Assembly: GCF_002571385.2 (NCBI RefSeq) | Contig: NW_019217858.1 | Coordinates: 463,218-527,217 of the forward strand | Direction: 5' to 3' | Origin: Stylophora pistillata | Lineage: Eukaryota | DNA length: 64,000 bases | Shown: in pieces, positions 3,010-59,900 of the stretch | Position numbering within the stretch: the first letter of the stretch is position 1 | Layout: each line of letters starts with the position of its first letter | Program-made: the position numbers and the translations under genes | The notes under the pieces: generated by a model | Databases searched by the model: none | Told to the model about the DNA's origin: nothing | Seen by the model: only the letters and a program-made list of their open reading frames with translations

Positions 3010-3194
3010 TCATCGCTTTATTGACAGTCTTTGCGCTTGTCTACAATCCTCGTTGTTGAAATGCTTTGATCACTCGAGGTGGTAATCAAACAGTTTCCTG
3101 CGCTTATGAGCTTATGAGCTGTGCAAACAGGTTTTGTGTTAATTTTCTGACTCATCGTCATCAGACAAGAGCGACAGTCAATGCTCGTGCTAAA

Positions 3195-5358
3195 ATGGCC
3201 GGATTTTCCTGCAGCGCGATTTTGGCTCTCTATCTAACCGCGATAACGTTTCCTGAAGGAGACGCTTATAGCTTGAATCGTGATAAAGCTACTACAGCGC
3301 CTCGCAGTAACATGTCGCTAGCACATGTCAGAACTCCGACGTCAATTCCCTCCACAAATGGATATGTGCAAGATCCGAAACCGATCAACAATGGAAACGG
3401 TATCTATTCCGAAGATTCAGAAATTTACAAACTGAGAATCGAGATTATCAAAGCCAAAATACTTAAAACACTTCAAATGGATAAACAACCGGTCGTCCAC
3501 ATAGAAAAAACAAAGGACAAAATGATCGCAGAGCTTCTCTTAAGTTTAAATCTCATTGATATGAGTGACGATGGCAACGAAACGGGAGAGTACGAAGACG
3601 GAAAGTATGACAAGACGAGTAAACTCATTGTTTTAAGCGAAAAAGGTAAGAGGAACAATTTTGCGTGCTCTAAGGGATAGAAACGAAGTCGCCTTTTGTC
3701 ATATTTCTCCACAGATAATTTCCATCAAGGTCATGGTCCGGCTTTCAAGTTTTCCCTTTGTTTTCAGGACGTTTTGATACCGGCATGGTCAAGAGGGCAG
3801 CAGTTAAATTATTTCAGCATATTTCTTGTCAATTCACTCGTCACCGCAGACAGCAGCAGAGCAAAGTTCAAGAGCTAATGTTGCAACAACTTCATAATTA
3901 CACAAAATCATTGCTGCCTTGACGTTTTAGATATTAGTTCTCGGCACCTCATACGGTGCTAACTGAAATAACGTTTTTTGTTTTGAATTTTGCCTCTAAG
4001 TTAATGACCATTGTGTTACGAACATTAGGAGGCGGAGTCGGTCTATATGTCCTTTCACAACTGCTCAGAGAGTGCTTTGGAAATTGCTTAAGTCCTGACA
4101 CGTAGGTTTAATGCAAAATGTGGAGAGAGGGTTAAACAATTTTCGTCATTCTTAACTTCTTCAACTAAGGAAACGTAATCTCAGAAACGTGCGATTCCAC
4201 CAGCTCACAATAACAAAATAATCCAGACAGTGCCTATGAGAGAATGTCAAGATTTATATAAAAGGAGGGGCACTAGGAACAATTGGTATTAATGCAAAAC
4301 AACGGTTAATAGTAGGTGAAACAATAGAAAGCATGCAAATAATTAGAAGCTTCAATTTTTTCACAGTTGACATGTATATGGTATACAAGCGTTGTGAAGA
4401 GACAAATAGGGCAAAAATTGAGCTTGGACTTTTTTTGCTGCTAACTGATTGGTAATCATAAATCCCATTTCAGTATGTTAGAAAACTAAAACAAACTTAG
4501 GCTAATAAACCGCTTTCTTTCTCTTCAATTTTAGCTGAGGTTTCACCTTCGAGATCAAAGCAAAATTTTTCCGAGAAGTTGATTTTCCAGTTTAATATTG
4601 AGCCGAAATCGCTGTCCAGTTCAGTGCCCTCTGCGTTTCTGTGGGTTCATAAACGGAAAAGCAGACAACACGAGCTAAGGAAGAAGACACTTCACATAAA
4701 GGACCCTAACAAAGAATCACCTAACAGCACCTCCGAAGTACCAATCAACAGAACGGTGACGGCCAAGTTAAAAGCAATACGAACCGGCTCAGGATGGGAA
4801 ATGATAGACATGAAAGAAATCGTTCGGCAATGGTTTAACAAGACAACTCAACAATACGATGCAAGGAATGGAACCGACAACGGCGTACACGAATTAGAAA
4901 TCTCTTGCTCGGACTGTGATTCGGACGTTGGTCAGCTAATTAACTCGCGGGGAAGATTACGGCCATTTCTCGTTATCGACTTGGAGAAGCCAAGAACACT
5001 GTCAAGGAAAAAGCGCCGAGTTAACAACTGCCCTGATGGGCAAGCAGTATCGTGCTGTCGTCGCAATTTCTATGTGGATTTCGGAAAAATCGGCTGGCAT
5101 TGGGTGATACACCCACAGGGATTCTATGCCAATTTCTGTGAAGGTTCTTGTAAGAGTCTTCATACGAGAATTACTAATGAACGAGCCATCATAATGCAAG
5201 AGGCAGTGAAAAAAAATCTGAGTCCACCTGGATTCACCGGCAGTTGTTGCAGCCCCACTAAGATGAAGCCCTTTTCTATGTTATATTGGGACGACGAGTC
5301 TAATATAGCAAAAAAAGACCTACAAGATTTAAAAGTTCACGAATGTGGCTGCTCTTAA
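3195..5358 (+). CDS. TGF-beta superfamily ligand, activin/inhibin-beta/myostatin-like; join(3195..3645,4535..5358), 424 aa
   Basis: Signal peptide MAGFSCSAILALYLTAITF; prodomain alpha-1 helix RIEIIKAKILKTLQMDKQP; RPFLVI motif; furin site RKKRR (5005-5019); mature domain with 9 Cys (C..CC..C...C..CC..CxC). A phase-1 GT-AG intron (AG|gtaag ... ttag|CT) joins the two ORFs in frame. Confidence 0.93.
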
Positions 5359-8300
5359 AATGCAAAGGAAGAAAGACATAGAGTCACGGACATCCGCAGA
5401 CGTGTTTAGCTTATTGAGTCTTAAGGTAAAAAGGCTGTTTGAAAGTAAGGTATCTATTTTTTAAGCAACTTTATTGACGTGGGAGGTTGAACGTTTAGAT
5501 TTAAGATAAGAAAAAAAAAGAGGAATTCTAAATTCCTCAAACGGGTCAGAAGAGAAATTTGATAGCCCCGTCGATAACCGAGGCATTATACCTCTGAAGT
5601 GTTGATTTTATCGGTTTTTGAAACGTAAATACCCTAACCATTTAATCTCATGGAATTCACGTAGATGTGCAAAGTTGCTATTTGATATCGAGCTTAATGC
5701 TCATCTAGGGCTTTGATTTATTTTTGCACGATTAAGAGACAAACATAACCGATAGAGTAGAGTATTTAAGACGATGAACTGAACCCTGGTAGCGCCACGT
5801 GTATGATGCCCTTCAATGGACATAAACTATTGTGATGTGATAATTTGCTAATTCCGGTGGCGCAGCGAGATAATTCGAGTGTTGATGTCCATCTTAATCA
5901 CGCCTATCTTGATACCAAATTGAAACTGGAAATAGCAGATTTATCGTACAAAAGTACAACTTATCATCGGTAAACAAGGGGTAAGTAGATATACATGCAT
6001 GTAAGGAATGATGCTCCATGGGGTTGTCTGAATTTTGAGGTCTTCCAAATGCAAAGCATTGCGGAGAACCATTACTAAATGTATCACTTTGCATGCAAAA
6101 CAGGTTTCTAAAACCACTGCTTGAGGATGGTTGAAAAGACAAATTGAAAGAGGAAGAATAAATTAAAGGAACTTTGCGAAATGATGAAGGTTAAGCAATT
6201 TCAAAACCCATTTGATCATCATTGATTTTTGCGAAATAATTGCTGGATCGGGAGTCAGGGAGGGCGGTTAATTCAAGCTTATGGCTTTTAATTCGGTAGT
6301 GGTTTCAAGACATCATGTGAGCAGCAAGAAAGAGTTTATACCCCCGACAAAGAAAAGAAACAGAAAGCGGGGTATCCTACTCAGTGACTACCCCTCGCAA
6401 CTAACCTCTTCCCCGTACAAGATATAAACCTAGAACAAAACAGAGCTGTCTCCCTATGAAAGAAAAGTACCGAAATCTGACCTAGAGAAAGAAATACTTT
6501 GATCTTTTCTACAGCCTCATTGCTTCCTTATACTGGCTATAAGCGTATAAAGTACTGTCAAATATGCTTTTATGTAACAAGAATCTAAAAGTAGTACTGC
6601 ATTATATTGCAATTAACTCACACGCTGCGAGCTCACAAGAGTGGCCGGCGGAGTGATTTAAAATCTTTCGTAAATTTAGAGAGTAAATAATGTGGCACAG
6701 CCGTTTCAAAAATACTTTTTGTGTGGTAACTTGGTGAGATTTTCTGTGACGAGTGTGTTAGTGTTTTATTTTAGACCTGTGAGGCAACTTAATGTTTTGT
6801 AGGTAAGGAAAAGCACACGATTTTTCAATAAAGTATTGTTTTCATCCTATAGATTCCACGAACATTTAGTCAGGGGTTCTTTTTGGAGGGGTTATTTTTC
6901 TGAGTAATAGATTCGTGAGCTGGTTGTCATGAAAGTCTATGATCAACTTCAGTTGGTCCTTCCATTGATCATTAATGCAGGACAGCTATTGTTAAGCAAT
7001 GCTTCATTAGACCTATATTCTTAGCTTGTTCTCTAGTTGTCTGACTGTTTTCTTAAGGAAGGGAAAATGAGCATACTCTCGGAAAGAACGGATACCCAAT
7101 TTCAGACCAAGAGAAGGTCGCGTTGAATAATACTTATTTAATTGCAGGGAAGTGCAAATAATTTTAGTTCCAAAGTATCTATAAGAAGGAGAAAGAAAAA
7201 CTAAAAGTAGCTTTCACGCCAACTTGCTCAACCTAATTCAGTCTGAAGCAGCCCGAGCTCGATGTACGACGTCATCTGAACTCGACTGTCATTACGTAAT
7301 GGTATTCCAGTAGGTATACTTCCATTGGGGACCAAATCATAGCATCCGGGATTTAAGTGGAAAAATAGCTTACTTTGCCACATTGTGTGTTTGTAAGTCT
7401 TCAGTGAGATTTTTTGGGTCGATTATTTGTTATTGAGGCGGTTTCAAGTCCCTCCGCTATTTTTATATACATTTCCCAACACAAACAAATCCTGATGTTC
7501 CTACTATTACGTAGCAACAAAATACTTCTTGTCGTTCAGCTGCAAAGCAAAAAGTGTGTTGTAGAAGGAGCGTCGCTACATACTCCAGTAAGCAATTTCC
7601 CCCCATCCCTCACATGACTTTAAACACGTATAGTATTGTATCCAGTATAGGATGTAAGTCCACTGAATATTCAAGCTACGCTGGGTCAACACCTATAGAG
7701 GTACTTTGAAAGCTTTTGGTCTACGGAGAGTAATAAGGAGCCAAAAAAGATCAATCGTCACATTAGAATAGGAAGACTCCCTTAATAACACGAATGAAAC
7801 ACACGAAACAGTGCCTACCCCATGGGGTACACAAAAACATCACGTCCGAAAGTCAGACGTTTGTTCTCGAATCCAGCAAAATAGATGCCGTCACGGTCCC
7901 TGGTACTTTACCATTGATGAGTGTCGTACGTCAGTGAATGAGAGGAGTTCGTCTCATTTACTAGAAAAACATTTAAATTCTTCAGGATTGCCCTGGGAAA
8001 TAGTATCAAATTAAAATTGAAAACTGAATAGTTCGGCGGGTGTCGAGGGGAAATGTAGTGTTGGGATGCTTGTTTTGACGTTCTTGAAATTCTTATACGA
8101 GCTTAAAATAGTACCAGATTCCCTAAGAATAGCCTATTCCAAGTGCTCAGTTAGTAAAATGGAGCGAAATAAATGAACGGCGCGATAGTAACAGCAGAGT
8201 GTAGGGAAGGAAGCAGGCTTTAGTCGGGTCGCGAGTCGACCCAAACCTCCCCTGTTTTTCCTTCGGTCCCCACCATCACACCATTGACTTTTGGGCTTCG

Positions 8301-8522
8301 TTTCACTGATTAAGAGCCTAGGACGAGCTACAATAGGAAGAAAACATTTTTTTAGCAAGAAATCATGGGATTGAAAACAAACTCGAAATAACGACATCTA
8401 GCATTTTGATTAAAGATGGAGATTAGCGAAGGGCTGGAAATGGGTGCTTACGTAATTTCTAACAATTCGGGCAAGGATACTTTGCAATCCGGCTAACATT
8501 TGCTAGTAGAGAATTACTTATT

Positions 8523-8848
8523 TGATAAGTAGAGATTTGCTGAAGCAAAGGCATATAAAAAACCAGGAAAGATTTATTGCTGCTCGACATTTCGGAATCA
8601 GCATGACTCCATTATCAAGAGACTAGTTAACTAGCATGCAACTAAAGAAAGGTACAAGATAATTGAACGCACATTGAACGTGCAAACATTAATATTCCAT
8701 CCGCGCCAAGGTGTTTGTTTAGGCCGTTTATTGTAATTTATGCTTATCTTGTACCTTTCCTTAGTTGCATGCTAGTTAAGTAGTCTCTTAATAATGGCAT
8801 CATGATGATTCCGAAGCGTCGAGCAGCAATAAATCTTCCCTGGTTTTT
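8523..8848 (-). mobile_element. Penelope-like non-autonomous insertion: inverted ~105-bp arms plus ~35-nt tail
   Basis: Arms 8558-8662 and 8744-8848 are inverted repeats; unpaired tail 8523-8557; 13-bp direct repeat agaattacttatt at 8510-8522 and 8849-8861; hammerhead-like motif in each arm. Confidence 0.75.
8583..8621 (-). ncRNA. Minimal type-I hammerhead ribozyme-like motif (U3-A8 core variant)
   Basis: Minus strand reads CTC-TTGATAA-T-GGAGTC-ATGCT-GATTCC-GAAAT-GTC-GAG (helix I, core, helix II, GAAA, GUC site). A more decayed copy lies on + at 8785-8823. Confidence 0.6.
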
Positions 8849-9255
8849 AGAATTACTTATTCAGTATTTTAAAAGGATGACAAAAAACCCCTGGTAATTG
8901 ACTGACTAATTGCCAAATGAAAGCCGAGTGGTAATTGGGTAAGATTGAAGGTAGCATACCATGGGAAAATCTTACGTTTACGTTTGCGGTGCACCCACGA
9001 CTGACACGACCAATCGGTTTAATCTCATTCGAACAAATTGGCTCAGAGAGAGAGGGAGAGATTGTTCGAGATTATATCAATTTGCACTGAGATTTTTGCG
9101 CTGCGTCGACAACTAGGGAAGTGAAACGATTGGTTGCTTTCTAACCGTAAATCCCGAGAAACGGGCTCGAAAAACTATCTCCGAGTATTTTAAGTTTTCC
9201 GGCTAATCAGTCGTGTTCTGTGGCACGTTATCATAACTGGTGCTTTTTACTTAGG

Positions 9256-9760
9256 TTTTGCAGCATTTTGTAACAAAGGCGAGCAACAAATTTTGAAATA
9301 AGGGCTGCAGCATTTTGTAACTGTCGAGTTTCTTAAAACTTACAACACAGTATTATTCCACGTATTAGGTATTTGCGGATTCTCTCCTTCGAATAAAAAT
9401 CTGTTATGCAGTTTTGGCGGTTTGAAAGAAGAAAGCGACACTTAACTTCAACAGTTACTTCAAGAATGATAAATCTAAGGAAACATTTCAACAGTTGTTC
9501 CGAGATATCGACGATATCTCGGTACTGAGAACAAAGCACGAGATTCGTCTATAATGGTTTGCATTACTTTTGCACAGTGCGGTATGTTTTTGTCGTCAGT
9601 AAGCTGAGATTATTAGAATTTGCGTTGAGATGTTGTTAGAAATTACGTAGACCTACGATTATTAAAAAAATGCTGCAGCTCTAATTGCAAAATGCTGCAA
9701 CAGCTCTTACAAAATACGCAGGGTTATAAAAAAATTATCAGTATTACAAAATGTTGCAGA
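9256..9760. repeat. Degenerate MITE-like element with inverted subterminal motifs
   Basis: GCAGCATTTTGTAA motifs on the left, TTACAAAATG(C/T)TGCA motifs on the right; ends not resolved. Confidence 0.45.
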
Positions 9761-12700
9761 AGAATTCGTATAAACAATGGATGTCAGAGGAGTTTTTCTC
9801 TAAGGTAACACCTAAATTCGCAAAAGTCACGGAGTCAAACCAAAAATCGAAACTTCATCTCCCATTGAAATTCACCCACGTTTCTCATTTAATTTGCGTT
9901 ATAAACAGACAATCCCCAAATCCCCCACTTTGCTTTGACGTGTGGCCAACACTGGAACTGATTTAAAGCTTTCTTAATCCGCGGTTCGCTCTCACGAATA
10001 GTCTCCTCTCGCAGCCGTTCTTTGTCTCGGGATCTAATAGACATATATAAAAGGAAAGCTAACACGTCATGCCTGTGTAAGTGGACTGTTGTTTTTTTTC
10101 TCATGAAAACGTATAGCCACAAAAAATTAATGTCATATCCAGCAGTCCCCCTTTCTCCTTCGCCTTCCCCTAAAAAACATTGTGAACGCGAAGGATTTGT
10201 TGTCAGAATAGTGCTATGCAAATGGTTATAGTATATACAGTTACATGTAGCTATATAGACAGACTAAGTGGCGTTTCAGTTTAAAATATACTTGTATTTC
10301 AAAGTGTTTGGTAGTTTCTGTACTAAATATTGTATGATTTTTTTTTTCAACCAGAAAAATGCATCATTTCTGTATACAGCCCTCAATCAAGACAATCAAG
10401 ATGGATCAGTGTTCCGAAGAAAAATAGGATCTCTCAATAATTTTTGATAAGCATCCCCCTCTCCAATAAACCTCTTCCCTATGTCCGGAGGCGAATCAGA
10501 TCGTTTAGTGGTAGCTCAAGTTTTCAGTGCAGACCTCTTGAAGAATTTTGAAGCGGGATCCGTTTAACTTATAAAACATTTGTCGATCTCGCATTTTTCT
10601 CCTTCTTGATTGTTAAAACGAATGGTTGCCCAAGCGGTTCTACGTAACGTTGTAAATTATCCCGTACGATAAGTTTCTTTAATCTCTAAAATTAGGGTAA
10701 AAAGAACTTATAGATCATCTATGTAGTAAAAGTTCAAGCCTTGGCTCCTGGAAAGCCTATTATACCTCTCCCGAAGTAGTAAACCTAGAGAATTTCTTAT
10801 CACTACGATACTGAACTAATCTAGAAATAACTAATCCAGGTCTTATCTATCGAATCGTGAACTAATTTTGGATTAATGGTAATACAAAACAGTTTAAACA
10901 GTTAAGCGAATTTATCCGTGAGGAGAAAAAGGGAAAGAAGAGGAAAGGAATGTCGGAAAATTATTAATCAATGGAAGTTGAGAAGGCAAAAAGGAAATTG
11001 CTCCGTTTGAGGGTTGACCTTGGTTTTGCCTCAAGTTGCTTCATACAAGGCAAACCGGAAAAGCTCCGACTGGATGGGCCACAGCTTGGCTCGAGTGCAG
11101 AGTTTACTTAACCTTAAATGGTTGCCACAGGTCAGAAAATGGTCGGGTAAAAGTACTGATTCCTTAAGGTCAGAGAGAAGTCTGGGAATTTCACTCTATT
11201 GAAGTCAAGGAAAATTCATGTTTTCCAAAGAAGTTAGGGAAAAGTTAATTTTTTTTTAACCAATTCAAGTACTTTGGTAGGTTTTTATAGAAATGATATT
11301 TATATAAATTAATTTGGGTGTCAATGAATGAAAAAATGTTTTTAGAGTGGCAGCACATGCTCTTAGTGGCTTTTCATCTATAAAATTCCAGATTGAAAAG
11401 CAACTTTGAGAAAACATGCAAAAAATGTGCTGGATTGTTTAAATACTGTTTTGTGAAAATTTATAAGATCCAGGAACACTGTTCCATAGGATTGCACAGG
11501 TTTCTGACAAAATCAATCCGTTTTTCATGTTTTGTCAAGGAACTATCAATTCATCTGCCTTGCATGTGACTTAATGACAGCAAAAATAGTTGAAAGGAGA
11601 GGATAGCTTTTGGGGTGGTTGTAGGTGATCACTATAGCTAATTCAGGAATTGTAAAATTGGTCAGGCAAATTTTACATTTGTCAAAATAAACCTATGGCT
11701 ATAGCAACAATGTTGTATATACTTCTGTCTCAAAGTTAATTGAACTGAAGAAAGACAGACAAGATTTGCTAATGAACACTTTGTAAAAGGAAAGCCAAGA
11801 CCTGAAGTGCAAGTAACACCTTTGATTACAACTAAGCAAGATAGAGTTCAAGGCAAGGACATAAAAAATGTTACTAAATTAGAGAACCTCAAAAGAGCAG
11901 AGAAGAAATTTCAACCTGGCTCTGATGAAGATTAAAAATTAAAAATTACAGATTAAAAATGAAGCTGAATGAAATGTATTTTCTAAAGAAAAAAAAAATA
12001 TCCTCTTTGTCTTCAATCTAGTGTGCAAATGAACCTGAACAGGATATGGATACTGAAAAGGAACTCTTACTGTGGAAGATCATGATCATGAAGTCTATGT
12101 TCAGTCATTGTGCATTTCCCTCTGCATATTTTGGTCATCATTCCCATCACTGCTAATTTTACATGAAACTGTGTAACTGCTCTGCATGACCATGATGGTA
12201 TTGGGCATTAACAATTAATGTACATTTCACTTGAGTAACAGATCCAAGCTTTAGTTTCTTGCTGCAAAAGCAAGAAATATCTGACCATTTTCATTGTGTC
12301 CACCCTTTGACATAATTTGTTTATTTGAAGATAATCTATTTTCTTGAAGTCATGCTCTAGGTTTAATCTGCAAAACATCTTGCACTGGGGCATTAGAATG
12401 TTTTCATTCTCTGTTGGTATTCCCATTTCATTGTTTTTGCTTTGGGAATGCACTATGATTTCATCCTCCTTCTTGCCTACGGGCTGGACCCACTGGGATG
12501 ATTCACTTGTGAAGATATCACTGAAAATGATTTTTCCTTTCCCACAGATATATAGTTGGAACTGAGACAACATTGAAAACCTGGTAGCATTGCTATCCAC
12601 AAAGAAAGCAAAATACTAGGGATGAAAATTATTGAGATTGAGAGTTATTATTCCTTTTCACTGCCAATGTAAATTGTCAGAGGAACTGGCTCAGTAAAAA

Positions 12701-12953
12701 AAAGGAACTCTGATGAAATAAACCAATGGAAATTCACTTTATTTTGCAAATAGTGGTCTGAAATTTTACCTTTCTAGTTGGTTAAGTTGAGCTTCTATCA
12801 TAAGTTTCAGACAAAAGTCATTGAAAGGTAATTTTACCACAGTTGGCAGAAATATTGCAATCTGATTGGCCAATTTGTCGTTGTTGCTAAGAGAGCAAAT
12901 GAAGCTGCCCGTGTCGACACAATATGTCACGCAATGTGTCGCGCACTGAAAGA

Positions 12954-12977
12954 ATACATACATACATACATACATAC
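12954..12977. repeat. (TACA)n microsatellite
   Basis: Read directly. Confidence 0.9.
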
Positions 12978-13340
12978 GTATAACTTTATTTAAACTCGGA
13001 TTTAAAATAGCTTGAGAGAGCTAGTAACTCCGAGTATAATTGGAGATTATAATCATTTTCTGATTTGACGTCGATGTTCTGGCCACAACATTTAAACCAC
13101 TGTGATGACGAATATCTTTAGTGGATAAGAGTACAGACCACACTAAATCACTCTCGATTTGTAAATTTGTTTTCCTAGTACAAGTGTATTCATCGTCGAT
13201 AAGACCTAAAATAATCAGTTGGCCATAAGTTTTTCTCAAGCATTTGTGAGAGAAATTCAGAAAAAAATCCTATATAGATTTCAAAGTGTTTCCTCTTTAC
13301 AGGTGGTAAAAGGGAATTTTCCATAGTTTTACCCAGATTT

Positions 13341-14208
13341 ATAATGGTAATTGAACTGGGTGGAGTGCAATTTGGGCTGAAGTCATATGGATGACTTCAA
13401 AATCAAACGAGCACGCAGTGCGAGTTTGATTTGAAATCACAAGTATGTTTCAGACCAAAATTGCACGACATGAGGCTCAATTACCACTTTATTACATTCA
13501 TTTTGAAATTGCCCAAATACAGGACTTGGTCAACTCAAATATTTTACTGATGCAGTACTGAGCCAGTTTTTAAGTAAAAGGTGGAACCAGAAATGCTTTT
13601 ACATCTTATTTTGTATGCAAAACAGAAAGACTTTGATGTCATGTGTCAAAATCTCAGTCAATCATAAAATGATGCGATTTAGAGAAAAAAATGGTGCGAT
13701 TCATGAATAAATCGCACCAGTTAGAGCCAATCAGATTACAGGGACCACCAGTGATTTCAAAATGGATGTAATAAATAATGGTAATTGAACTGAGTGGAGT
13801 GCAATTTGGGCTGAAATCATACATGTGATTTCAAAATCGAACGAGCGCACAGCGCAAGTTCGATTTGAAATCACAAGTATGATTTCAGACCAAAATTGCA
13901 CGACACGAGGTTCAATTACCACTTTATTACATCCATTTTGAAATCGCCCAAATGCAGGACTTAGTCAATTCAAATATTTTACTGATGCAGTGCTGAGCCA
14001 GTTTTTAAATAGAAAGCGGAACCGGAAACGCTTTTACATCTTATTTTGTATGCAAAACAGCAAGACTTTGACGTCATGTGTCAAAAACTCAGTCAAGCAT
14101 AAAAATGATACGATTTAGAGCAAAAAATGGTGCGATTCGTGAATAAATCGCACCAATTAGAGCCAATCAGATTACAGACCACCAGCGATTTCAAAATGGA
14201 TGTAATAA
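13341..14208. repeat. Head-to-tail tandem dimer of a ~434-bp interspersed element
   Basis: Units 13341-13774 and 13775-14208 align along their length; each ends in a module bounded by ttattacatccattttgaaatc / gatttcaaaatggatgtaataa. Confidence 0.9.
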
Positions 14209-15570
14209 AGGTAAAAATTACATCAGACTGCATAGATCTTTCATGGCAAGCGGGAAGAATTAAACATGTGATGTGCATTCAAAGCAATGTGAAACAAGAG
14301 GAGATATTTACTTTCAGCTGTAAGTATTGGATATTTTTCTATTTCTGTTAGATTTTCCTGTGGATGAATTAAGAGGTAAAGGCATTGTTTCTAACATTTT
14401 TCTGTTGCCTTTGTAAATAAACGGGGAACTTCTTAAAATTTGTCTTTGAATTTGTAGCATTCTCAACAAATTAAAGGTAAGATATCAAGGAGAAAGTACC
14501 TACCATACTTAACTTAAACATACCCTTTCGAAGCGAAGCTCCTAATTCACATGAGTTCCCAGCTTCGGACCAAACAAATAAACTTTACATCCTGAATTTT
14601 TCCTTTCCAACGGTTTTATGCTCCTCATCGTCCAATTCAAGGTGCAATAATCTCATAAAGGACTTTAAAAATCAGCAAAATCTGAATATGTGAGATCTGT
14701 TGTCCACGTCTATGTCCACTTGCAAAGCTCACAAAGGTTCACTTGTGTCACCCGCGTTCGATGTTTCCCGCGCTTGGCAAATAGGTGTTATCACGTGACG
14801 TGTTAACCCAATCAGCTGGGGGTTGATAAGAAACAGTATGTGGGGGAGTGGGAGGGGTCTAAAGTTTCTTGAGAACGCCTTCTTCAAGATATTTTGCAAT
14901 TAATTAACGAGAAAAAAAAAAACAAAAAATAATTTGGTCCTTAAGATTAAAAACTAGCCAGATTCACATTTGAGAATTAATAACTACTGCAAGTGCTGCA
15001 GATTTTTCAATTGCTCCTAAGTGGCCTTCAAATTATCAATCACGTCAGTCTCAAGAATTTATGTTAAAAATACCCATTTCGATTTTAGAAACTTTGTCAG
15101 AACGTATTTCTAGTCACAAAGGTTTCTCAGTCCCTCGGGGTGGAAACTTGTGGAAAGCCCTGAATTATTTACTTTTTCTCCTTCAAAGTGACTTCTCTTT
15201 CTGCCTTCCACGTACATTCTGCCCTTTCCCTTGATTAAAAAAATTGGTGACACAGAAAAAGTTATTTGTCGCCCGGGGATCGGGTAAGGGGTGAGCAGAG
15301 GATTTTGGGTGGTGATTTTCATGTGAAACGGGGAGTATCCGTCGTTGCTGACTGTTTCGTTTAGTAAATAGGCGTCGCCTATGATGACAGATATAATTTA
15401 ATTAACACAACTCGTGATTGACATTAATTCCTCACGATGATTTAAAGTGTTAGCTTGTCGTGATTTAAACTAGTTTTTTCAGAAGAATCAGTGAGAGAGA
15501 AGTCGATTTTTGTATCTGTTCGCTTACCCGAATCTGCTAACCTGAAGTGAGAAACCTGTTTTTACGACCC

Positions 15571-16188
15571 NNNNNNNNNNNNNNNNNNNNNNNNNNNNNN
15601 NNNNNNNNNNNNNNNNNNNNNNNNNNNNNNNNNNNNNNNNNNNNNNNNNNNNNNNNNNNNNNNNNNNNNNNNNNNNNNNNNNNNNNNNNNNNNNNNNNNN
15701 NNNNNNNNNNNNNNNNNNNNNNNNNNNNNNNNNNNNNNNNNNNNNNNNNNNNNNNNNNNNNNNNNNNNNNNNNNNNNNNNNNNNNNNNNNNNNNNNNNNN
15801 NNNNNNNNNNNNNNNNNNNNNNNNNNNNNNNNNNNNNNNNNNNNNNNNNNNNNNNNNNNNNNNNNNNNNNNNNNNNNNNNNNNNNNNNNNNNNNNNNNNN
15901 NNNNNNNNNNNNNNNNNNNNNNNNNNNNNNNNNNNNNNNNNNNNNNNNNNNNNNNNNNNNNNNNNNNNNNNNNNNNNNNNNNNNNNNNNNNNNNNNNNNN
16001 NNNNNNNNNNNNNNNNNNNNNNNNNNNNNNNNNNNNNNNNNNNNNNNNNNNNNNNNNNNNNNNNNNNNNNNNNNNNNNNNNNNNNNNNNNNNNNNNNNNN
16101 NNNNNNNNNNNNNNNNNNNNNNNNNNNNNNNNNNNNNNNNNNNNNNNNNNNNNNNNNNNNNNNNNNNNNNNNNNNNNNNNNNNNNNNN
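15571..16188. other. Assembly gap (N run)
   Basis: Ns. Confidence 1.
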
Positions 16189-16430
16189 TTTGTGGTGGTC
16201 GTCTGAGCTGACCAGTTCCGAGTAAGGAAACACTGACTTTAGACAATTGACTGCCAATTAATTGCTAATCAGCGGGATCATAAAATTGTTTCAGAGCCTC
16301 ATGGGATCAGGTAAATTTCATCGTAACACAACCAGAATCCCTCTTCCCCAGGCGATAGATAATGATTGGCCGGACTGTGCAGAGCCGGGTTGAAATGAGC
16401 CGGTCCGGAAAATGCCGTCCGGCCCTGTTG

Positions 16431-17011
16431 TTTATAGTTTATGCTAGTAAAGGTAGCATATTATGCAAGTAGCATTGCTCTTTTTTTAGCGAAATTATGC
16501 TAAAATTATGCTCTTTTTTTCCAAGTTATGCCCCTTTTTTTAAAATTATGCTCTTTGAAAAATTGCAAATAACTCCAAAAAATACATTTTTTAATTAGAA
16601 GCCGTTGGTCTACATGAAAGAACCGCAACAAATCCACAATCAAATTCAAATAAACAGATGGTTTATGTTAACATGCACACTAGTACTAGACTATACATGG
16701 CCTACAATGTGACTTCCGGTTCCGGTGCACCCCTGACCCGGGCTCAGACCGTTTCAGACGCCGCGCAGTGATTCACAGTGAACTACAAATGCTAAACCTT
16801 CAAAAAACTAAAACTAAAACTAAACGAACTAAAACTTAAAACATCGAATAACGTCACCAAGTGCTTGGGAGTAGAGATGAACAATGATCAAATAAATGAT
16901 CCAATATATATCAAAATATGCGAATTATGCTAGCATTGCTACTTGGCAGAAATTATGCCAGTTTGCTCAAATTATGCCAAAAATTATGCTAGCATAATCT
17001 ATAAAGGCCTA
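16431..17011. mobile_element. hAT-type MITE with 8-bp TSD; left TIR clipped
   Basis: TSD ccctgttg at 16423-16430 and 17012-17019; right end gctagcataatctataaaggccta matches left tttatagtttatgctag lacking the first ~6 nt; AATTATGC subterminal repeats. Confidence 0.75.
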
Positions 17012-18299
17012 CCCTGTTGCCCTCGCGTCGCTTTGTGGTAAGAACTTAAAGGAAAATAGAAATGAAAAAAAAAAAAAAAAAAAAAAAAGTCGCGTCTTTC
17101 AAGGAATTGGGGTTTTCTCGCTCTGACTCGCAAAAATAAAGGAAAAGTTATAATTCCATTTTTTTTTTTTTTTTTGTGCTCGTTTTGCTGCGTGTACCCG
17201 GCTTCTATCGCGTCCTATCTATGCTGAGGTTTTCAAAACTTCGTGGTCATATGATGAAATGCTTATTGACTGAGTTTAGTTGGGCCGGGCGTGAAAATAT
17301 TTGGCTTTCTGTCATGAGGCACGGACCTCGCGCACTCCGTATGTCATGAACTCGAATAAACTGGTATAGGTGTGGAAGATTGTTGGCTGTGCCGAATAAA
17401 TTCGTAGTGGTATTTGCTGGCTCAACGATCTGATTGAGAATTAAAAGTAATACTTTCTATTTCTCGACCCTGTTAAGGCCATTAACTTTGGTCACCTGTC
17501 AACCTGATAACAAAAACAGCCGACTGGCGTTTTCATTTTTCTTACCTGTCTTATCTTACAGGGGAAAGGAATAAATATCTACAGGGGTTGAAAAAGAATT
17601 GGATCAATTTCCCGCAAGGCTATCACGGCAATGACACAAACCTCCCCACCCTCCCATCCCCCTACGCACCCTTGGTTACAGGTACTTTGATTGAAAAAAA
17701 TTATCAAATATGAGCAGACTAGAGTTAAATATGTAATCAATCATGATACAGCCTTTATTTCCTCTTTTCCCCGCTATTTGTTTCAGATTCCAAGATGCTC
17801 TCTACGTATTCGTGCTCGTGGGTTCAAAACGGAAAAAGAAGTGCTTAAAAGTTTTTTCCCGCTTCCGTAGTCGTAAATTACCAATTTTTGTTCTCGTCAG
17901 TAATCTGTGAACTTAGGGATATTGAGGTGGTAGTCACAGAGAAAATACTCAACACTCCCTTCTCTCTCAAAAAATTGCCATCATAACGTGTACCAGAGGA
18001 TTTAACTGAATCTATTTAATGCGATTTTAGTAGTAACTACTGCTTCCCACTCTAGAGAAGCGGATGTGAAATATGTCAAGTTGTAGGCGTCCCGAATTAA
18101 CAATTGAAACCGGAAACAGGATGTAAAAGTACATTACGTAGTTTCAGAGAATATAACAAGACCCCATATTTAAGCGATACTTCGGCTTTTCTTCTCATAC
18201 TTGTCACGTTATCACGTTTTATCTCCGTTGAAAAACCGTCTCGGAGACTTCGTGGTCTTAAATATTTCCCAGTCACAGGTGTACAACAATACCTCAATT

Positions 18300-18487
18300 A
18301 TCTTATCACCTTTTATCCAATCACAAGGCTCTGAATTAGCACATGATCAGACGCGTGCAGCTGAGCTTCGCATGGCGCGGTCGCGGAACTGAGAGGTGGC
18401 AACAAATATGGCGTCTGAAGAAAGTTTGGAACTTGCTGGCCGCCTTTGACGAGGGATTGTGGATTTGTTGACATGTATTTGAACGAT
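18300..18487 (+). promoter_or_regulatory. DOT1L promoter/5' leader: CpG-rich, CCAAT, YY1-like AAATATGGCG, short uORF 18408-18449
   Basis: Motifs read directly just upstream of the DOT1L ATG. Confidence 0.5.
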
Positions 18488-38506
<20,019 letters not shown>

Positions 38507-52700: not shown

Positions 52701-53947
52701 TTTTGGCTAAGTGTTTATTGTCCATACTTCGCTAAATTTGAAAATTAATTCTTCGGTAAGCAAATACCCGCTTGTAGTGTTGAATAATTTTTTTTGCCAC
52801 TGAATCGCAAATGATGCGAAATAAGTCAATTTCCCTGAGGTGTTTTAACAAAGATTTTTTTTTATTAAACTTCAACTTTGTAGTCCGGATGTTTATGTGA
52901 ATTGGAAAATATCACCGTGGACTGTTAGTTTAAGAAGCCAGCCAGCAGGTTCTATTGAAAATATCTAAATTGATCCTATTTTGTTTATGTTCTTTGCCAA
53001 AATTTGCGCCGGGAGAGAAGTCTTTATCAGGATTTATTGACTTCCACCCTGCTAACATGGAAACGAGATGTAACTGCTTAGTACGCATGCTCAATAGGTT
53101 CAAAATAAAAACCGACTGCTCTAGCTGTAAGGGTTAGTTTACTGTTCTTTCATCGGAGGGAAGCGTTGTATCTATTTCGAATCTACCGCATCTTTTGGTG
53201 AACGTAGTTCAACCTGCCACTTGAACCTCTGCAATTACTTCTTCTTGGCTGTGGAAGGACTATTTTTTATCGCCAACTAATCTTGTTCTACTACTGCAGT
53301 CGATAGACATCTCCGATCGACCTAAGTGGTTTACAAAGCTCTTCGTTTTATTAGCAATTTTCGATATTGGTAAACTTACTCGATCCGAGTGTGCAAATCA
53401 GGATTTTATTATCTGTGGCCCTGCAAGTGGCTGCTCAAACACCAAATCGGCCTCTCCCAGAAAATTGGAATTCACTAATGCCGGAAGATTCAGGAAAGAT
53501 TGATATTTTGTCATTTCGAAAGCTTGCTTAGCTGAGAGAAGCTTAAACATTTTCAACGTGCGAAGCTGGGAGCCGTGTGACCGCAGACGATGTCTGGTTA
53601 ACAAACTCATGCTGATGTACGAAGTAAACTTTTGTTGTGAGGTTTTGGTGTTTATTTGCTGTTAATATATTTTCTTAAAAGTGGCTAGCCTTACAAATTG
53701 TGGTCTTATTTGTCGAGAAAAGTGATAATTCAGTTGAAACCATTTAACAGCTGAAGTTTTGTACTTTGAAGTAGAATCTGTCTTTTTTTAAAAAAAACTA
53801 TCCACTTGTTTAAGTCTGGAACATTAACCTTCCCAATTATTAAAACTAGGAAATCCACATATTTCCAACTCTGTTGTAGCTTCATACTTTGATATAAGAA
53901 TGGTGTTATAAAATTTTTTATTTTGTAAATTGCTAGACAGCCCTCCC

Positions 53948-56900
53948 ATGGAGAAGCTTAGTGGGCCGGCATATATTCCAAATCCATTGACGTCTCCTGC
54001 CCTTATGGTACTGGCATCAACTGCAGAGGCTGCTCGTTCCACTGCCTCTTCCCCTGGACCAATGAATGACTATCACGCAATCTACTCATCACCATCAAAC
54101 CGCTATATTGATGGTGAAGCTGTGCACAGAATGGTATTGAATTCGACCCATTTCCAGCATCGGTCTTCTCATCTTGCTCTCTACCCTGGCTCAGAGCATT
54201 ACACTGAAAGAATGCCTCACGAATTTGGACCACATTTTATTCAAATGCATCACCACTTAGGAGGAGGGCTTCTCCACAAAACAAGTGGGCCCACTGCTGT
54301 ATTTAATGGCACTGGTGCTTTCCGCAGAGTTGTGCCACCCGAACATGCTTTCCCTTTTCATCATTTACAACATCCACGAAGCCTGTTGGAGCGAGAACAC
54401 CATGTTGATAGCTTGTACAAGAGCTCTGAACTAGATAAAGAGGCAAACTTAGAAAGGAGTTTAAAGGACAGGATTTCTCCAAGAAAGCCTGATAAGGACG
54501 GTGAAACACGTCTGATTGGAGAGCAACCAAAAAGCCCCAGCCCAATAAGAAGGGCCAGCTTGCATGATGAGTCTGATAATAGTAATATCGAGACTGTAAA
54601 CATCAAAAGAGAACACATTGATCAGATCGAGTGCTGCAAGGGTAGTGAAGCTGAAGATAATGATAGCAATGGGGAATTGCAATTGAAAGGTGGGTAAAAA
54701 AGATTTCCTACATAATTTTTTACAAGTACATCATAAAGAAATTAAATTTCATTGTGGTCTCTTCTATTTAGAAGGTGAGTTTACCTGTAGTTAATTTTTT
54801 GTCTGGTTTGTAAATTGTATTACTACAACATGAGGCATATTAAACTGTCTGGTTAGAGGCTAGCTTTGTTAAATCTGGTTATTGTGCAGTGACAGCCAAA
54901 AACTTCTAGAAGGTTTTGTTTTTGGTGTTTTTAATCGTGAGGTGTAAGGAAAATTCACAGCATTTTTGCTGTCGCAAAGTAGCCTTGCCAAAGGGTTTTA
55001 AAATTCATGATGAAAAGTGCTATAAATGCAGGTTATTTATTGATAAATTTGTGTAATACTGCCAGAAATTGCTGAGCCAAAACAGAAAATTAAAATAAGA
55101 ATGACTTAATCCTGCATTAAATCCATTTCTTAGAAATCAATCCTGAAAGCATTTTTTGAACATTTTCAAACTGTTGTGATGTTAGCTGTTCATTTTATTT
55201 GTTCATTATTTTCTTTTAAAAAACTGGTGCTTATGAATGAAATGGAAAATTAAGAGGTGTTTGGGGACCTGCAGAAGGTAAAATATTCCTGCTTGGGTGC
55301 CAAAAATAAGAAAACATGTCAGCTTTTGCTGGTAATCAATTCATCTTCACCAAAAGTAATATATTTTGCAGCTTGCAGGGATCTGAAAAGTGATTCCTTA
55401 TTAATTTGTAAATGCACTTTTCAAACTGCCTCCCAGATGTGTGGTAATTTGAATTTTGTTCAATTATTTCAATAGAGTTGATTCATAGAGTGTTGGTGTG
55501 AAGGGAAGCAGGTCGGGAAAAATGGTGTGATTAAATTTCCTGTGAAACTGGTGATTAAATTCGGCCCTTTCTTGCTTATTGTAAATATTGAGATATGTTT
55601 GAAATAGATGATTTGTAATATACTCCAACAAGACTCAAAAAGCAGATGGTCATTAGCATAACAATGCTAAATGCTTGTTAGTTCTTCTCGTTTCCATAGC
55701 ATAGAAAAGGGCCCTCTTTTCATCCTCCTGTTTTATAGCAAATAAATTGTACTGTGTTATATTTTTTCAAGAGGACTCTAAAGAGGCAAACTAGCTTCTC
55801 AACAGAAAACTAAACTGTAAACCCCAAGTTTAACATCTCTAAGTTAAGTGGTTTTGTTTAACTGATAACATAAGTTTCATCTCCATTTGCAAGTTACACC
55901 TGCATGCTAAATAGTTATTCATGCTGTCTGTTCTATTGTGTTCCTTATTTTTCTTATTTAACTTGAAAGAAGTGCTAATTTTCCAGAGTCTTGTTGTTTC
56001 TAAAGTGTTAAGGATTATCAGATTTAAATGACTCTACAAAGTGTTTCGCCAGTACCCTTCTTGTTAACAGTTGTCCACAACCAATTCTTTGTGGAACATT
56101 TTATTTTTCATTTTAACTGAGAAATTTGAACTATTTGGTTAGATGCCAAGTCACCCGGTACTCTTTCATTTGTATTTTTTAATTTTGCATCTAGTTTAAA
56201 TGAGTCTTTTTCTTGTTTAAATTTTTACTTAAACAGCCTCTTAAATTTTTCTTTTTTCATGTAGATGTATTAAATGAGAGCAGCTTCTATTCTATGTTTC
56301 AATTAATTAAAACATTTAATGTTTCTTCTAACAGCCAAAGACAATTGTTGTAGTCTTTTAGTTTAAGCCTGCTCTCTAGAAAATTCTATCTTAATTTTTT
56401 TATTGTGTACCCCACGGGATGTAAAACACTCGTCAGAATTCTCACCAAACTGACTGCATTTCTTAAAACTAATATTCCAGCCATTGTTTTTTTGTGGATT
56501 GATATTCTCAAAGAGTTTTTTCACATGTGTACACTTTGCAATAATGGGAATAATTTGTGATAATTACTAGGACAAGCAGAAGTTGCTCTTCAGTGTAAGC
56601 CGATCATCTTTTTACATTTCTAATCTTTTCATTTTTTGTTTTACCCTCGCCAAAGCTGTGTGCTCAAAATTGTTGTTTTGTATTACAGGGCAGGAGTAAA
56701 GCCCTGTTTGAGGGATAAAAGAAATTTTTGGTGAAAAGAAAATTAGTTTCCATAGCATCTCCTTTGACACAATGGTGTTCTGTATAATTACATACAGTTT
56801 ATGATAAAACCAGAGAGAAGAAAATTTGTAAAATAAGATCTCCCAGGGAGAATACTACCCTTGTTATTAGCTTTTGCCATAAAATATACTCAAATATTAA

Positions 56901-59900
56901 CATACACTGTTAGGCTGGGTCTTTACGATGTCAGCGAATATTGACTCTGTGATGTGAAAATAGGTGTTGAGTGACTGGTCTGTGCTTACAGAAGATGCCA
57001 AGTTCCTTCTTTCCTAGTGTTTGTTTGCAAAAGGAAGTTCTTAGACCATGTGGTTCTTGTCATGTAATAAATAATTTTTGTAGTCAAACTTGTTTTGGGC
57101 TCCTGTAGAAATAGACATTGTTAGTGCACTAAGTTTTCCTTTGACTTTCCTTCCCTTTGTACAAGGTAGGCTTCATAGTTGACATCCCTTGGTTACTGTT
57201 CTTCCTTCTTGAGAATGTTGTTTATATTAAGCTGCTCTGTTTTGTCAAGTGTTATGTTTCTGGGTTCATTATCTTCTGCTGTATATTTTCAACTTTCAGG
57301 ATTTTGAATTTCTCACCAAGTTTTGCTCTCACTATTCCTATTCTAACCCTGCAAACCTAAGATGATGGAAATAAATTGAATGATCACCAATGTGAGAAGC
57401 TTTGATAGTCTAAAAAATTCTCCTTAGCAGTACCAAAGGAAATGTATAGAAAAGAGTATGAGAATACAGATCAGGGCTCGAAACTAACTTTTCAACTCAC
57501 TAGCCAAGAGGCTGTTGACAACTTAGATGTTACAACAATTTCAGTTTGTTTACTAGCCAAACTGGCTAGTGAAAATCAAAAACCACCAGCCAAAACTGAA
57601 TTTGTACTAGTCTGTGGCTAGTTGGCTACTGTTAAGTGTGGAGCCCTGCAGATACTAAAATGATAGGGAGTATAGCGTCAAAGTAACTCTGTGTTGTAGC
57701 ATATTTGCAATGTGTCTAAGAAAACAGAAACATCAGCTTTCTATGTACTGCAATTTGAACATGTAGCAGCAAATGAGGAGAGTTTCTTCTGTTGTTGAGG
57801 TGAAAAGAAGTTTATTATGTGATTGTGGGGGGCTCTTCAGTGAGGCAACACATTAACAGAAAAAAGAAGAAAAAAAATTTTTTGGATTTTAAGACAGCAC
57901 CCTTTCACACACTGTCCTTTTTTTTGCTGCTGTTGTGATCCTAGGAAGGCTGTTGTACAATGTTTGTCTCATTAGCCTAAATCAATCTCTACCAGACTAC
58001 ATGTAGGTGTTACTAGACTGGGATGTGATGGATAGCCAATGGAAGAATAGTCAATTAGCACATGTTTTTGCAGCTTTTACCCTCGTATTAGTAAGGAAGT
58101 TGTTGGTTAAATCAACACCTTTGCTAGAAAACAGTGTTTGTGCATGTGTACCTCGTGCAATTGCTAACATTTCATTATTCAGCTCTGTCAGTGGGCACTT
58201 AATTGAATTAGTAGGGTGTGGACATATGCAACTTGTAAGAAGTTTCTAAGACCACAAATAACAAAACTGAAAGCATCCGATTGGTTCAGAGGGTAGCACA
58301 AATTTTCTATATCACTTAGAACAGAGTGAATGAAAATGAATGTGATCCGTGATCACTTCCATTTCTCAATTGCCACTTTTCTTCTAACCAAGTTCATAAA
58401 AGATTTTTTTCTTTTTTTTTTAATCAACTTCAGGAAGACAGAGATCATCTTCAAGTCAAGCACCATGTTGTCCTGTGTGTGGCAACAGCATCAGACCAGG
58501 TGAAATGGAAAGTCACTTTGCTTGGGAAATGGAGAGATTCTGTGAAGAAAACAGGTCAGTTTGGGGATTGTAGTCAGTGCGCACCTCCTTACTATATCAT
58601 CAAAGAGCAAAGGTGTATGAAGGAATTTCAACTTAAGATTACAAGCCATTTGCTGGGACTTGGCATACTGACTTTGAATAAAAGATGAAGTCTGTACCAG
58701 AGTGAAGTAGCTCATTCAGGTGGAGCTCGTCCTAGTTTCCATAGCATGAAGCAAGATAAAACTATTTTTTATGCTGGTATCTTGCTCAATACTAATGAAA
58801 CATCATGTCTTTGACAATTTACTGAGCTATTAATTTTTTATAAGTTTTCCTTTACTTTTTAAATTACAATTTTCTTTTTTTTTTGTTTTTTTTGTTATAC
58901 TGGTGTAATTTAGGGGGCACAATATTTAGTTTATCTAGACATACCCCTCTCCTCTCCTTCTTATCTACAATGTGACTTAATTGGTGTAATTTTGTATAAT
59001 TGTAAGTTTTCTTTCCTTGAAAAGTTTATATCTTTTACTATAATTTTCACCTTGTATCTATTTCTGGTAAGGTTTGGAGAAATATATAGATCTATAAAAC
59101 TAGTAATAGCCAGAGATTAGGGAGAAGTTTTCAACCATTTTGGCCAAGCAAGCACACCAACATGTGAGGCAAAACGTGAAACACAACTCCTGCTAGAAAC
59201 AAAGCACATGGTTGATATAAATGACGTCATTCGCCCCTGAATAATTTTTTTGGGGGGACCAAATTGGTGTCCATGAATACACAGTCCAAAAAAGTTGATT
59301 TCAACTGCATTATGAACACGTTCCTTGTTGAATGCAAAAAAAAAATTACTACTTACCTCTGGGTGGGATGTCAGTCCATCACAAAGTTACCCTTCATCAG
59401 GATTCCCTGACATTTTACCAGTACCAATTTACACTCTTGGGTGGAGAGGGGCACTGTGAGGGTAAAGTGTTTTGTCCAAGAACACAACACAATGTTCCTG
59501 GCCAGGGCTCAAACCCAGACCTCCCAACCCAGAGTCCAGTGCAGTAACCATTAGGGGCCGACCATTTAACTTTTGGGGTGGGTGATTTGTGGTCATCAAG
59601 AAATTTTTTTCAAGCAATCTGCTGGGCAGGATATTTTTTTTCATTCTAGATGCTCTTTTTTTTTCTATTACATTTGGGCTGCATGCAATTTTTTTCTTCC
59701 AACAAGCACTTACAGGAAATTTTTTCTCAAAATCATTAAGGTATTCTGGAGAAGAAAAATGTTGAACATTTTTGTATACTTAGAGAGAGGGGTGCTCTTT
59801 TGGTGTTAAATTTGAAATCATTTGTTTTTTTGGACAGAAAACCAAGAAGAAGTCAAAGAGAATCTGCTTTGCAGGCAAGGAAGGTATGTGTGTACCACAC

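What the first reader, a model, noticed from the sequence alone, without database searches (positions are those of the whole stretch)
3195..38506. TGF-beta ligand next to DOT1L: possible ancient counterpart of vertebrate AMH-DOT1L linkage
Seen: an activin-type ligand is the nearest recognisable gene upstream of DOT1L (13 kb apart). Established: the divergent TGF-beta ligand AMH lies close to DOT1L in human (19p13.3), and amh neighbours dot1l in teleosts. Inference: the ligand-DOT1L pairing may predate the cnidarian-bilaterian split and could mark the ancestral locus from which AMH diverged, which sequence trees resolve poorly.
Basis: partly seen in the sequence, partly recalled or inferred. 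Interest (0 to 1): 0.7.

Follow-up and report, generated by a model that had tools for sequence, protein, structure and literature searches.

The report
Old activin-like gene beside DOT1L
An intact activin-family growth-factor gene sits directly upstream of DOT1L in this coral and, judged by gene numbering, likely also in another stony coral and a sea anemone; it groups with a branch in which no vertebrate protein was seen and likely shared an ancestral chromosome with DOT1L, which makes it an unproven positional candidate for the ancestor of the sex hormone AMH.

Summary
A two-exon, 451-aa, nine-cysteine activin-subfamily gene (3114-5358) lies 13.1 kb upstream of DOT1L (18488-38506), with no recognisable gene between. 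The pair is not a misassembly: both genes share a contig or chromosome in 8 of 8 hexacorals where both accessions were obtained, with consecutive protein accessions in Oculina and the anemone Actinostola. Nematostella has broken it (about 1,060 gene ids apart) while keeping DOT1L-RNF220-NFI. Trees place the ligand in a third, dawdle-like activin class with jellyfish, brachiopod, amphioxus and beetle proteins, apart from inhibin-beta and myostatin. The amphioxus member is on BFL15, which I recall as linkage group L, likely DOT1L's group. Against the AMH idea: no AMH_N domain, 23% identity to AMH versus 50% to activin A, DOT1L on the opposite side of the ligand in fish, and GDF15 an equally good candidate. 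AMH could not be put in a tree, and adjacency outside Hexacorallia could not be tested. Verdict: a real, old hexacoral gene pair and a likely ancient shared chromosome; descent of AMH from it is open, about 1 in 4.

The parts
3114..3645 (+). Activin-subfamily ligand, exon 1 (signal region and start of prodomain; second in-frame ATG at 3195)
4535..5358 (+). Ligand exon 2: rest of prodomain, RKKRR cleavage site, stop
5020..5355 (+). Mature cystine-knot domain, 112 aa, 9 Cys; best PDB matches inhibin beta B 102.6 and beta A 100.9 bits
5359..18487 (.). Intergenic stretch, repeat-rich near the gap, no Pfam-positive ORF (0 of 74)
15571..16188 (.). Scaffold gap (618 N) between the two genes; not bridged by the runs laid
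18488..38506 (+). DOT1L histone H3K79 methyltransferase gene, 22 collinear coding segments; second gap 23922-24548 lies between segments
53912..62422 (+). RNF220-like gene downstream (Pfam RNF220 at 62243-62422; the 53912-54694 ORF is assigned to it by position only; gene likely runs on past the window); DOT1L-RNF220 neighbourhood also in Nematostella

Best explanation
This is an intact activin-subfamily ligand gene lying directly upstream of DOT1L, a pairing likely inherited from the common ancestor of stony corals and sea anemones; the ligand groups with a third, dawdle-like activin class, likely shared one ancestral chromosome with DOT1L since before cnidarians and bilaterians split, and is not shown to be the ancestor of AMH. 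Shown here: gene models, recurrence of the pair, tree position, amphioxus chromosome. Inferred from family knowledge: the precursor is secreted, cut by a furin-type protease at RKKRR, and the disulphide-linked dimer signals through activin receptors and Smad2/3. Inferred: the pair persists because local gene order in this block (ligand-DOT1L-RNF220-NFI) shuffles slowly, not because the two proteins work together, since Nematostella tolerates the break. The vertebrate DOT1L-AMH neighbourhood most likely formed separately on the same ancestral chromosome, with the third-class gene lost or changed beyond recognition in vertebrates.
For: Consecutive protein accessions on one contig: Oculina KAL9951493/KAL9951494 (locus tags 044161/044163), Actinostola KAK3731059/KAK3731060 (019218/019219); four apart in Desmophyllum (KAJ7356142/KAJ7356138); same chromosome length for both genes in 5 of 5 acroporids. 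Nematostella: Activin NV2.173, DOT1L NV2.1233, RN220 NV2.1235, Nfix NV2.1242; NFI also lies downstream on this scaffold. Third class is one clade: 99/98 unrooted, 99/98 with BMP outgroup under the mixture model, 70/99.7 under LG+G4; AU tests reject anthozoan + inhibin-beta/Act-beta (p 0.010) and + myostatin (p 0.020). The top-scoring bilaterian-labelled hits of the coral profile are the Lingula and Branchiostoma proteins. The B. floridae member is on a 21,514,203-bp sequence = BFL_15, by elimination one of groups D, F, K, L, N. ALG Ea is unfused in scleractinians.
Against: BFL15 = L, and the L membership of DOT1L, RNF220 and NFI, are recalled, not read in any call; the paper text says chicken 28 descends from CLG C, with L only implied through the C-L fusion pair. 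Adjacency in other species is read from accession order and contig length, not from DNA; RefSeq offsets are 21-86 in 4 of 5 acroporids and 1,562 in M. foliosa. The Nematostella activin sequence was not in any tree. In one search the third class is drawn open (bootstrap 70), and the mature-domain tree did not resolve it. Tree rows were chosen by me from a coral-profile search, most are unnamed, and no named Dawdle, AMH, GDF15, inhibin-alpha or GSDF was available.
Confidence: 0.6

Rival explanations
1. The pair is ancestral to cnidarians and bilaterians, and AMH is the fast-evolving vertebrate descendant of this third-class ligand, still held near DOT1L after a local rearrangement.
For: Pair kept across the anemone-coral split; the class has an amphioxus member on BFL15 and no recognisable vertebrate member among the rows treed; amh sits beside dot1l in gar and teleosts. 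A vertebrate ligand within three genes of DOT1L by chance is roughly a 1% event (my estimate from recalled gene counts).
Against: Order reversed; no AMH_N match in 3 coral ligands or in 17 further activin-subfamily proteins; AMH 23% versus activin A 50% identity; AMH's receptor groups with BMPR2; SF3A2 and ELL are not on this scaffold; two- and three-gene order is poorly kept across cnidarian classes.
Confidence: 0.25
2. The vertebrate heir of the third-class gene is GDF15 (or GDF15 and AMH arose from it by local duplication), since GDF15 keeps nine cysteines and lies next to ELL and FKBP8, which flank dot1l in fish.
For: ell and fkbp8 lie upstream of dot1l-amh in teleosts and gar; GDF15's nine cysteines and its place beside ELL/FKBP8 on human 19p13.11 are recalled; structural Z 9.2 for GDF15 against 8.0 for AMH.
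Against: GDF15 identity is also only 23%; its GFRAL/RET receptor system ties it to the GDNF family; no GDF15 sequence could be treed; coral ELL is on another scaffold.
Confidence: 0.12
3. The adjacency is a scaffolding error at gap 15571-16188.
For: The gap is repeat-flanked and no listed contig or read bridged it.
Against: The same pair has consecutive accessions in independent assemblies of Oculina and Actinostola and shares a contig or chromosome in 8 of 8 species.
Confidence: 0.01

Closest known systems
Cnidarian 'Activin' genes (Acropora digitifera Activin 1 and 2, BAQ19091/BAQ19090; Nematostella Activin NV2.173)
   Same: Same clade in all trees for the Acropora proteins; nine-cysteine mature domain; already annotated in databases.
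   Different: One copy found here against two in acroporids; the link to DOT1L was not found in print.
Dawdle / activin-like (third activin class; name recalled, supported by the eggNOG label 'daw' for Nematostella activin)
   Same: Groups with beetle, brachiopod, amphioxus and jellyfish proteins apart from inhibin-beta/Act-beta and myostatin/myoglianin.
   Different: No named Dawdle sequence was in the tree; branching inside the class is unresolved.
Vertebrate inhibin beta A/B (activins)
   Same: Best PDB sequence matches, 102.6 and 100.9 bits; 50% identity on the structure alignment.
   Different: An exclusive clade with them is rejected (p 0.008 and 0.010); they lie on the Hox-bearing paralogon beside GLI (recalled).
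AMH and the vertebrate dot1l-amh block
   Same: A TGF-beta ligand next to DOT1L; same cystine-knot fold, Z 8.0.
   Different: Opposite side of DOT1L; AMH has an AMH_N prodomain and seven mature cysteines (recalled) and a BMPR2-related receptor; 23% identity.
Conserved two-gene microsyntenies on ancestral metazoan linkage groups (Simakov 2020, 2022; Zimmermann 2023)
   Same: Old gene pair inside a conserved chromosome-scale unit.
   Different: Shown only within Hexacorallia; lost in Nematostella.

Membership tests
TGF-beta family, activin subfamily | Prodomain, multibasic cleavage site, cystine-knot mature domain | tested here: met
   Pfam PF00688 + PF00019; RKKRR in the sequence; model and fold match
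TGF-beta family, activin subfamily | Nine cysteines in the mature domain | tested here: met
   9 Cys in 112 aa
TGF-beta family, activin subfamily | Groups with activins and myostatins against BMPs | tested here: met
   99/94, 96/91
TGF-beta family, activin subfamily | Signals through activin receptors and Smad2/3 | not testable with these tools
   inferred from family knowledge
Inhibin-beta / Activin-beta orthologues | One clade with vertebrate INHB and protostome Act-beta | tested here: not met
   AU p 0.008 and 0.010; Act-beta labels given by eye
Myostatin / GDF11 / myoglianin | One clade with myostatin-type proteins | tested here: not met
   AU p 0.020
Third (dawdle-like) activin class | One clade with the amphioxus, brachiopod, jellyfish and insect proteins | tested here: met
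   99/98; weaker, 70/99.7,
Third (dawdle-like) activin class | Contains Drosophila Dawdle itself | not tested
   no named Dawdle sequence obtained; only the 'daw' label
AMH | AMH_N prodomain (PF04709) | tested here: not met
   no match in the ligand at E up to 1 or in 17 relatives at E up to 10; the genome search found none but had no positive control
AMH | Seven-cysteine mature domain (recalled) | tested here: not met
   9 Cys
AMH | Phylogenetic grouping with AMH | not testable with these tools
   no AMH sequence could be obtained as a stored protein
Vertebrate dot1l-amh block | DOT1L lies 5' of the ligand | tested here: not met
   pike dot1l is upstream of amha; here DOT1L is downstream of the ligand
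Vertebrate dot1l-amh block | Shared flanking genes (SF3A2, ELL, OAZ1) | tested here: not met
   SF3A2 on C11, ELL on C31; antizyme not found (inconclusive)
Pan-eumetazoan microsyntenic pair | Adjacent in more than one hexacoral order | tested here: met
   Oculina and Actinostola consecutive accessions; not in Nematostella
Pan-eumetazoan microsyntenic pair | Adjacent in medusozoans or invertebrate bilaterians | not testable with these tools
   no DOT1L position obtained for amphioxus, Lingula or Rhopilema
Pan-eumetazoan microsyntenic pair | Same ancestral linkage group in amphioxus | tested here: inconclusive
   ligand on BFL15; group narrowed to D, F, K, L or N; L is recalled

The most novel reading that the evidence does not exclude
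Vertebrates did not lose the third, dawdle-like activin class: the gene stayed beside DOT1L from the cnidarian-bilaterian ancestor onward and was remodelled into AMH (possibly also GDF15), so the coral, anemone and amphioxus genes are AMH's long-missing invertebrate orthologues, identifiable by position where sequence trees fail.
Probability: 0.25. Interest if true: 0.8.

Novelty: new member of a known kind. Interest (0 to 1): 0.52.

Why it matters
AMH and its duplicates recur as vertebrate sex-determining genes, yet AMH has no accepted invertebrate orthologue (recalled). This locus names one candidate gene in amphioxus (XP_035699471, BFL15), Lingula (XP_013388584) and Rhopilema (XP_065069268), so the question reduces to looking up DOT1L's coordinates in a few public genomes. 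Even if AMH is unrelated, the result suggests that the cnidarian 'activin' is not the inhibin-beta orthologue but a member of a third activin class, which bears on how activin/Smad2/3 work in cnidarians is compared with vertebrates.

Tried and rejected
Bridging the gap with public runs: no listed piece from 4 of 23 listed runs spanned it. Metagenome DOT1L loci: 0 of 25 carried the ligand, but none reached more than about 4.4 kb upstream of exon 1, so this is uninformative. AMH_N and antizyme searches of the genome found nothing and had no positive control. AMH and GDF15 were not among the 60 rows shown in two PDB sequence searches (60 of 65, 60 of 68), so no bit score was obtained; the fold search gave identities instead. 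Amphioxus DOT1L position: not found in the supplements of PMC11136973, PMC9238270 or PMC7269912, nor by accession-prefix search. The mature-domain-only tree (82 of 170 extracted rows, quick method) left the base open. ESM Atlas gave only generic TGF-beta clusters. Seven look-ups of earlier scan findings gave nothing on this locus. My first reading, that the ligand is a plain inhibin-beta orthologue from a linkage group fused to DOT1L's only in anthozoans, was dropped. No complex prediction was run: no binding is claimed.

Full report
Observation. The window lies on contig C75 of a 398-Mb genome. The ligand gene has two exons, 3114-3645 and 4535-5358, with a GT/AG intron, and encodes 451 aa identical to protein P0016, which public sources label inhibin beta B chain-like of the stony coral Stylophora pistillata. 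It carries TGFb_propeptide and TGF_beta domains, an RKKRR site and a 112-aa mature domain with nine cysteines. DOT1L follows on the same strand, 22 collinear segments from 18488 to 38503, then RNF220. None of 74 intergenic ORFs hit Pfam. The gap at 15571-16188 is repeat-flanked and was not bridged by any listed piece of 4 runs. The genome has 25 TGF_beta matches on 19 contigs; of the 22 scored with a profile of the coral ligands, this one scores 192 bits and the next 96.

Other cnidarians. I compared accession order and contig length for the ligand and DOT1L. Both accessions were obtained for 8 species, and in 8 of 8 the two genes lie on a sequence of the same length. Oculina patagonica and the sea anemone Actinostola have consecutive protein accessions (locus tags two and one apart); Desmophyllum has them four apart on a 1.09-Mb contig; Acropora palmata, A. 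muricata, A. millepora and Montipora capricornis have RefSeq offsets of 21 to 86 for the nearer ligand copy, M. foliosa 1,562, and RefSeq order is only loosely positional. One unnamed 1,174,753-bp contig holds both genes. For Pocillopora, Porites, Orbicella, A. cervicornis and A. digitifera only the ligand accession was obtained. In Nematostella the gene table (PMC10946136, supplement 2, search plus parts 1 and 4 of 77) gives Activin NV2.173 and DOT1L NV2.1233, flanked by ISY1 and RN220, with Nfix at NV2.1242 and no TGF-beta-named gene among NV2.1078-1429. Coral NFI lies about 55 kb beyond the end of DOT1L on C75 and ISY1 on another scaffold. So DOT1L-RNF220-NFI is shared, the ligand-DOT1L pair is shared by Actiniaria and Scleractinia, and Nematostella most simply lost it. 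That both Nematostella genes are on one chromosome is inferred from the running ids.

What the ligand is. Best PDB matches are inhibin beta B and A (102.6, 100.9 bits), then BMP6 and GDF11 near 76. Full-length trees tell a different story. With 42 rows chosen from the 150 best representatives and named cluster members there are three starred clades: myostatin-type, inhibin-beta plus Act-beta-type, and a third (99/98) holding the window's ligand, corals, Actinostola, Rhopilema, Lingula, Branchiostoma and the beetle Diabrotica. With BMP outgroups the third class is one clade at 70/99.7 (45 rows, LG+G4) and 99/98 (30 rows, mixture model). AU tests reject grouping the anthozoan proteins with inhibin-beta/Act-beta (p 0.008, 0.010) or with myostatin (p 0.020). 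Labels of unnamed rows were given by eye. The name dawdle-like rests on recall and on the 'daw' label of Nematostella activin (PMC13193452 supplement 7). No AMH, GDF15, inhibin-alpha, GSDF or named Dawdle sequence was available, and the mature-domain tree was unresolved.

Linkage group. The B. floridae member of the class lies on a 21,514,203-bp sequence, which Supplementary Table 4 of PMC7269912 names BFL_15. BFL15 equals a single linkage group, and passages of PMC8809688 and PMC11175523 assign the other chromosomes so that D, F, K, L or N remain. I recall BFL15 as L, and NFI, RNF220 and DOT1L as L genes from their human and chicken positions. The text read gives chicken 28 as CLG C, chicken Z as C plus L, and a C-L fusion with a paralogous pair, which fits but does not prove this. 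The Nematostella list around both genes mixes names I recall from human 1p/5/9/19p with names from 3p/7/12/X; since ALG Ea is unfused in scleractinians (PMC11577847 passages), the group common to coral and Nematostella is likely the 1p/5/9/19p one. The ligand and DOT1L therefore likely shared a chromosome in the cnidarian-bilaterian ancestor. The amphioxus DOT1L position was not found.

AMH. In pike, dot1l is the closest gene 5' of amha, 4.3 kb away, with ell and fkbp8 further upstream and oaz1 downstream, conserved to gar (PMC6726246, passages and section 11). The coral order is the reverse. SF3A2 and ELL are on other coral scaffolds. No AMH_N match was found in the ligand or in 17 relatives. 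On a model of pLDDT 86, identity is 50% to activin A, 34-39% to myostatin and 23% to both AMH and GDF15. AMHR2 groups with BMPR2 (PMC5979292 section 5). GDF15, which I recall as nine-cysteine and next to ELL/FKBP8 in human, is as good a positional heir. A rough weighing (my estimate): about 1% for any vertebrate ligand to fall this near DOT1L by chance, against about 0.5% for ancestral adjacency, retention and remodelling together, gives about one in four after the reversed order and the shared chromosome are counted.

Mechanism. The protein most likely works as a secreted, furin-cut, disulphide-linked activin-type dimer acting through activin receptors and Smad2/3 (inferred). The neighbourhood is most likely a slowly shuffling block, possibly held by shared regulatory DNA; nothing here shows a functional tie to DOT1L, and gene order is generally poorly kept across cnidarian classes (PMC10719294 passages).

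Novelty. The gene is known and annotated. Five paper searches listed no paper on an invertebrate ligand-DOT1L link; the library lacks most subscription journals. Seen as listing only: PMC3161366, PMC2657120, PMC8293304. Passages read without use: PMC9673378, PMC8321703, PMC13330826, bioRxiv 2024.07.29.605683. Supplements not seen, among them those of PMC10719294, PMC8809688 and PMC11175523 and all bioRxiv files, may hold the linkage-group tables that would settle the amphioxus and jellyfish question.

Verdict. Real and old within Hexacorallia, likely on one ancestral chromosome with DOT1L, AMH ancestry open and directly checkable. Interest 0.52.

Noticed in passing
window 18488-62422 and G000:C75 about 557,300-558,000 (L037:55-825, -): DOT1L-RNF220-NFI block is shared with Nematostella (NV2.1233, 1235, 1242), a three-gene microsynteny that outlasted the ligand link there.
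   Followed up: partly
proteins P0370/P0380 and P0394/P0407: Acropora and Montipora carry two copies of the ligand on the DOT1L chromosome, one with a longer branch.
   Followed up: partly
L009 (G000:C413:186684-186983, -): A ligand that looks like TGF-beta proper by eye and falls outside both the activin clade and the BMPs.
   Followed up: partly
L017 (G000:C100:333132-333440, -): Very divergent ligand that falls inside the activin subfamily on a long branch; placement unsure.
   Followed up: partly
L010-L015, L022 (G000:C70, C96, C172, C741): An expanded set of divergent TGF-beta ligands, four of them within about 31 kb on C70.
   Followed up: no
window 33674-34582: ORFs in a DOT1L intron that look by eye like remains of a LINE-type reverse transcriptase; no significant Pfam match.
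   Followed up: no
L031-L033 and L040 (G000:C75 about 398,000-430,000, -): Upstream neighbours: a very large vitellogenin/apolipophorin-type gene with open frames of 2,518 and 1,984 codons, and an apparently single-exon NIF phosphatase resembling CTDSPL2.
   Followed up: partly
L035:2683-4281 (+): 533-aa ORF between RNF220 and NFI with no Pfam match.
   Followed up: no
window 54000-62000 and 24000-28000: Strong CpG depletion inside the RNF220 and DOT1L gene bodies (8-19 CpG per 2 kb against 26-95 in the other bins), consistent with gene-body methylation.
   Followed up: no
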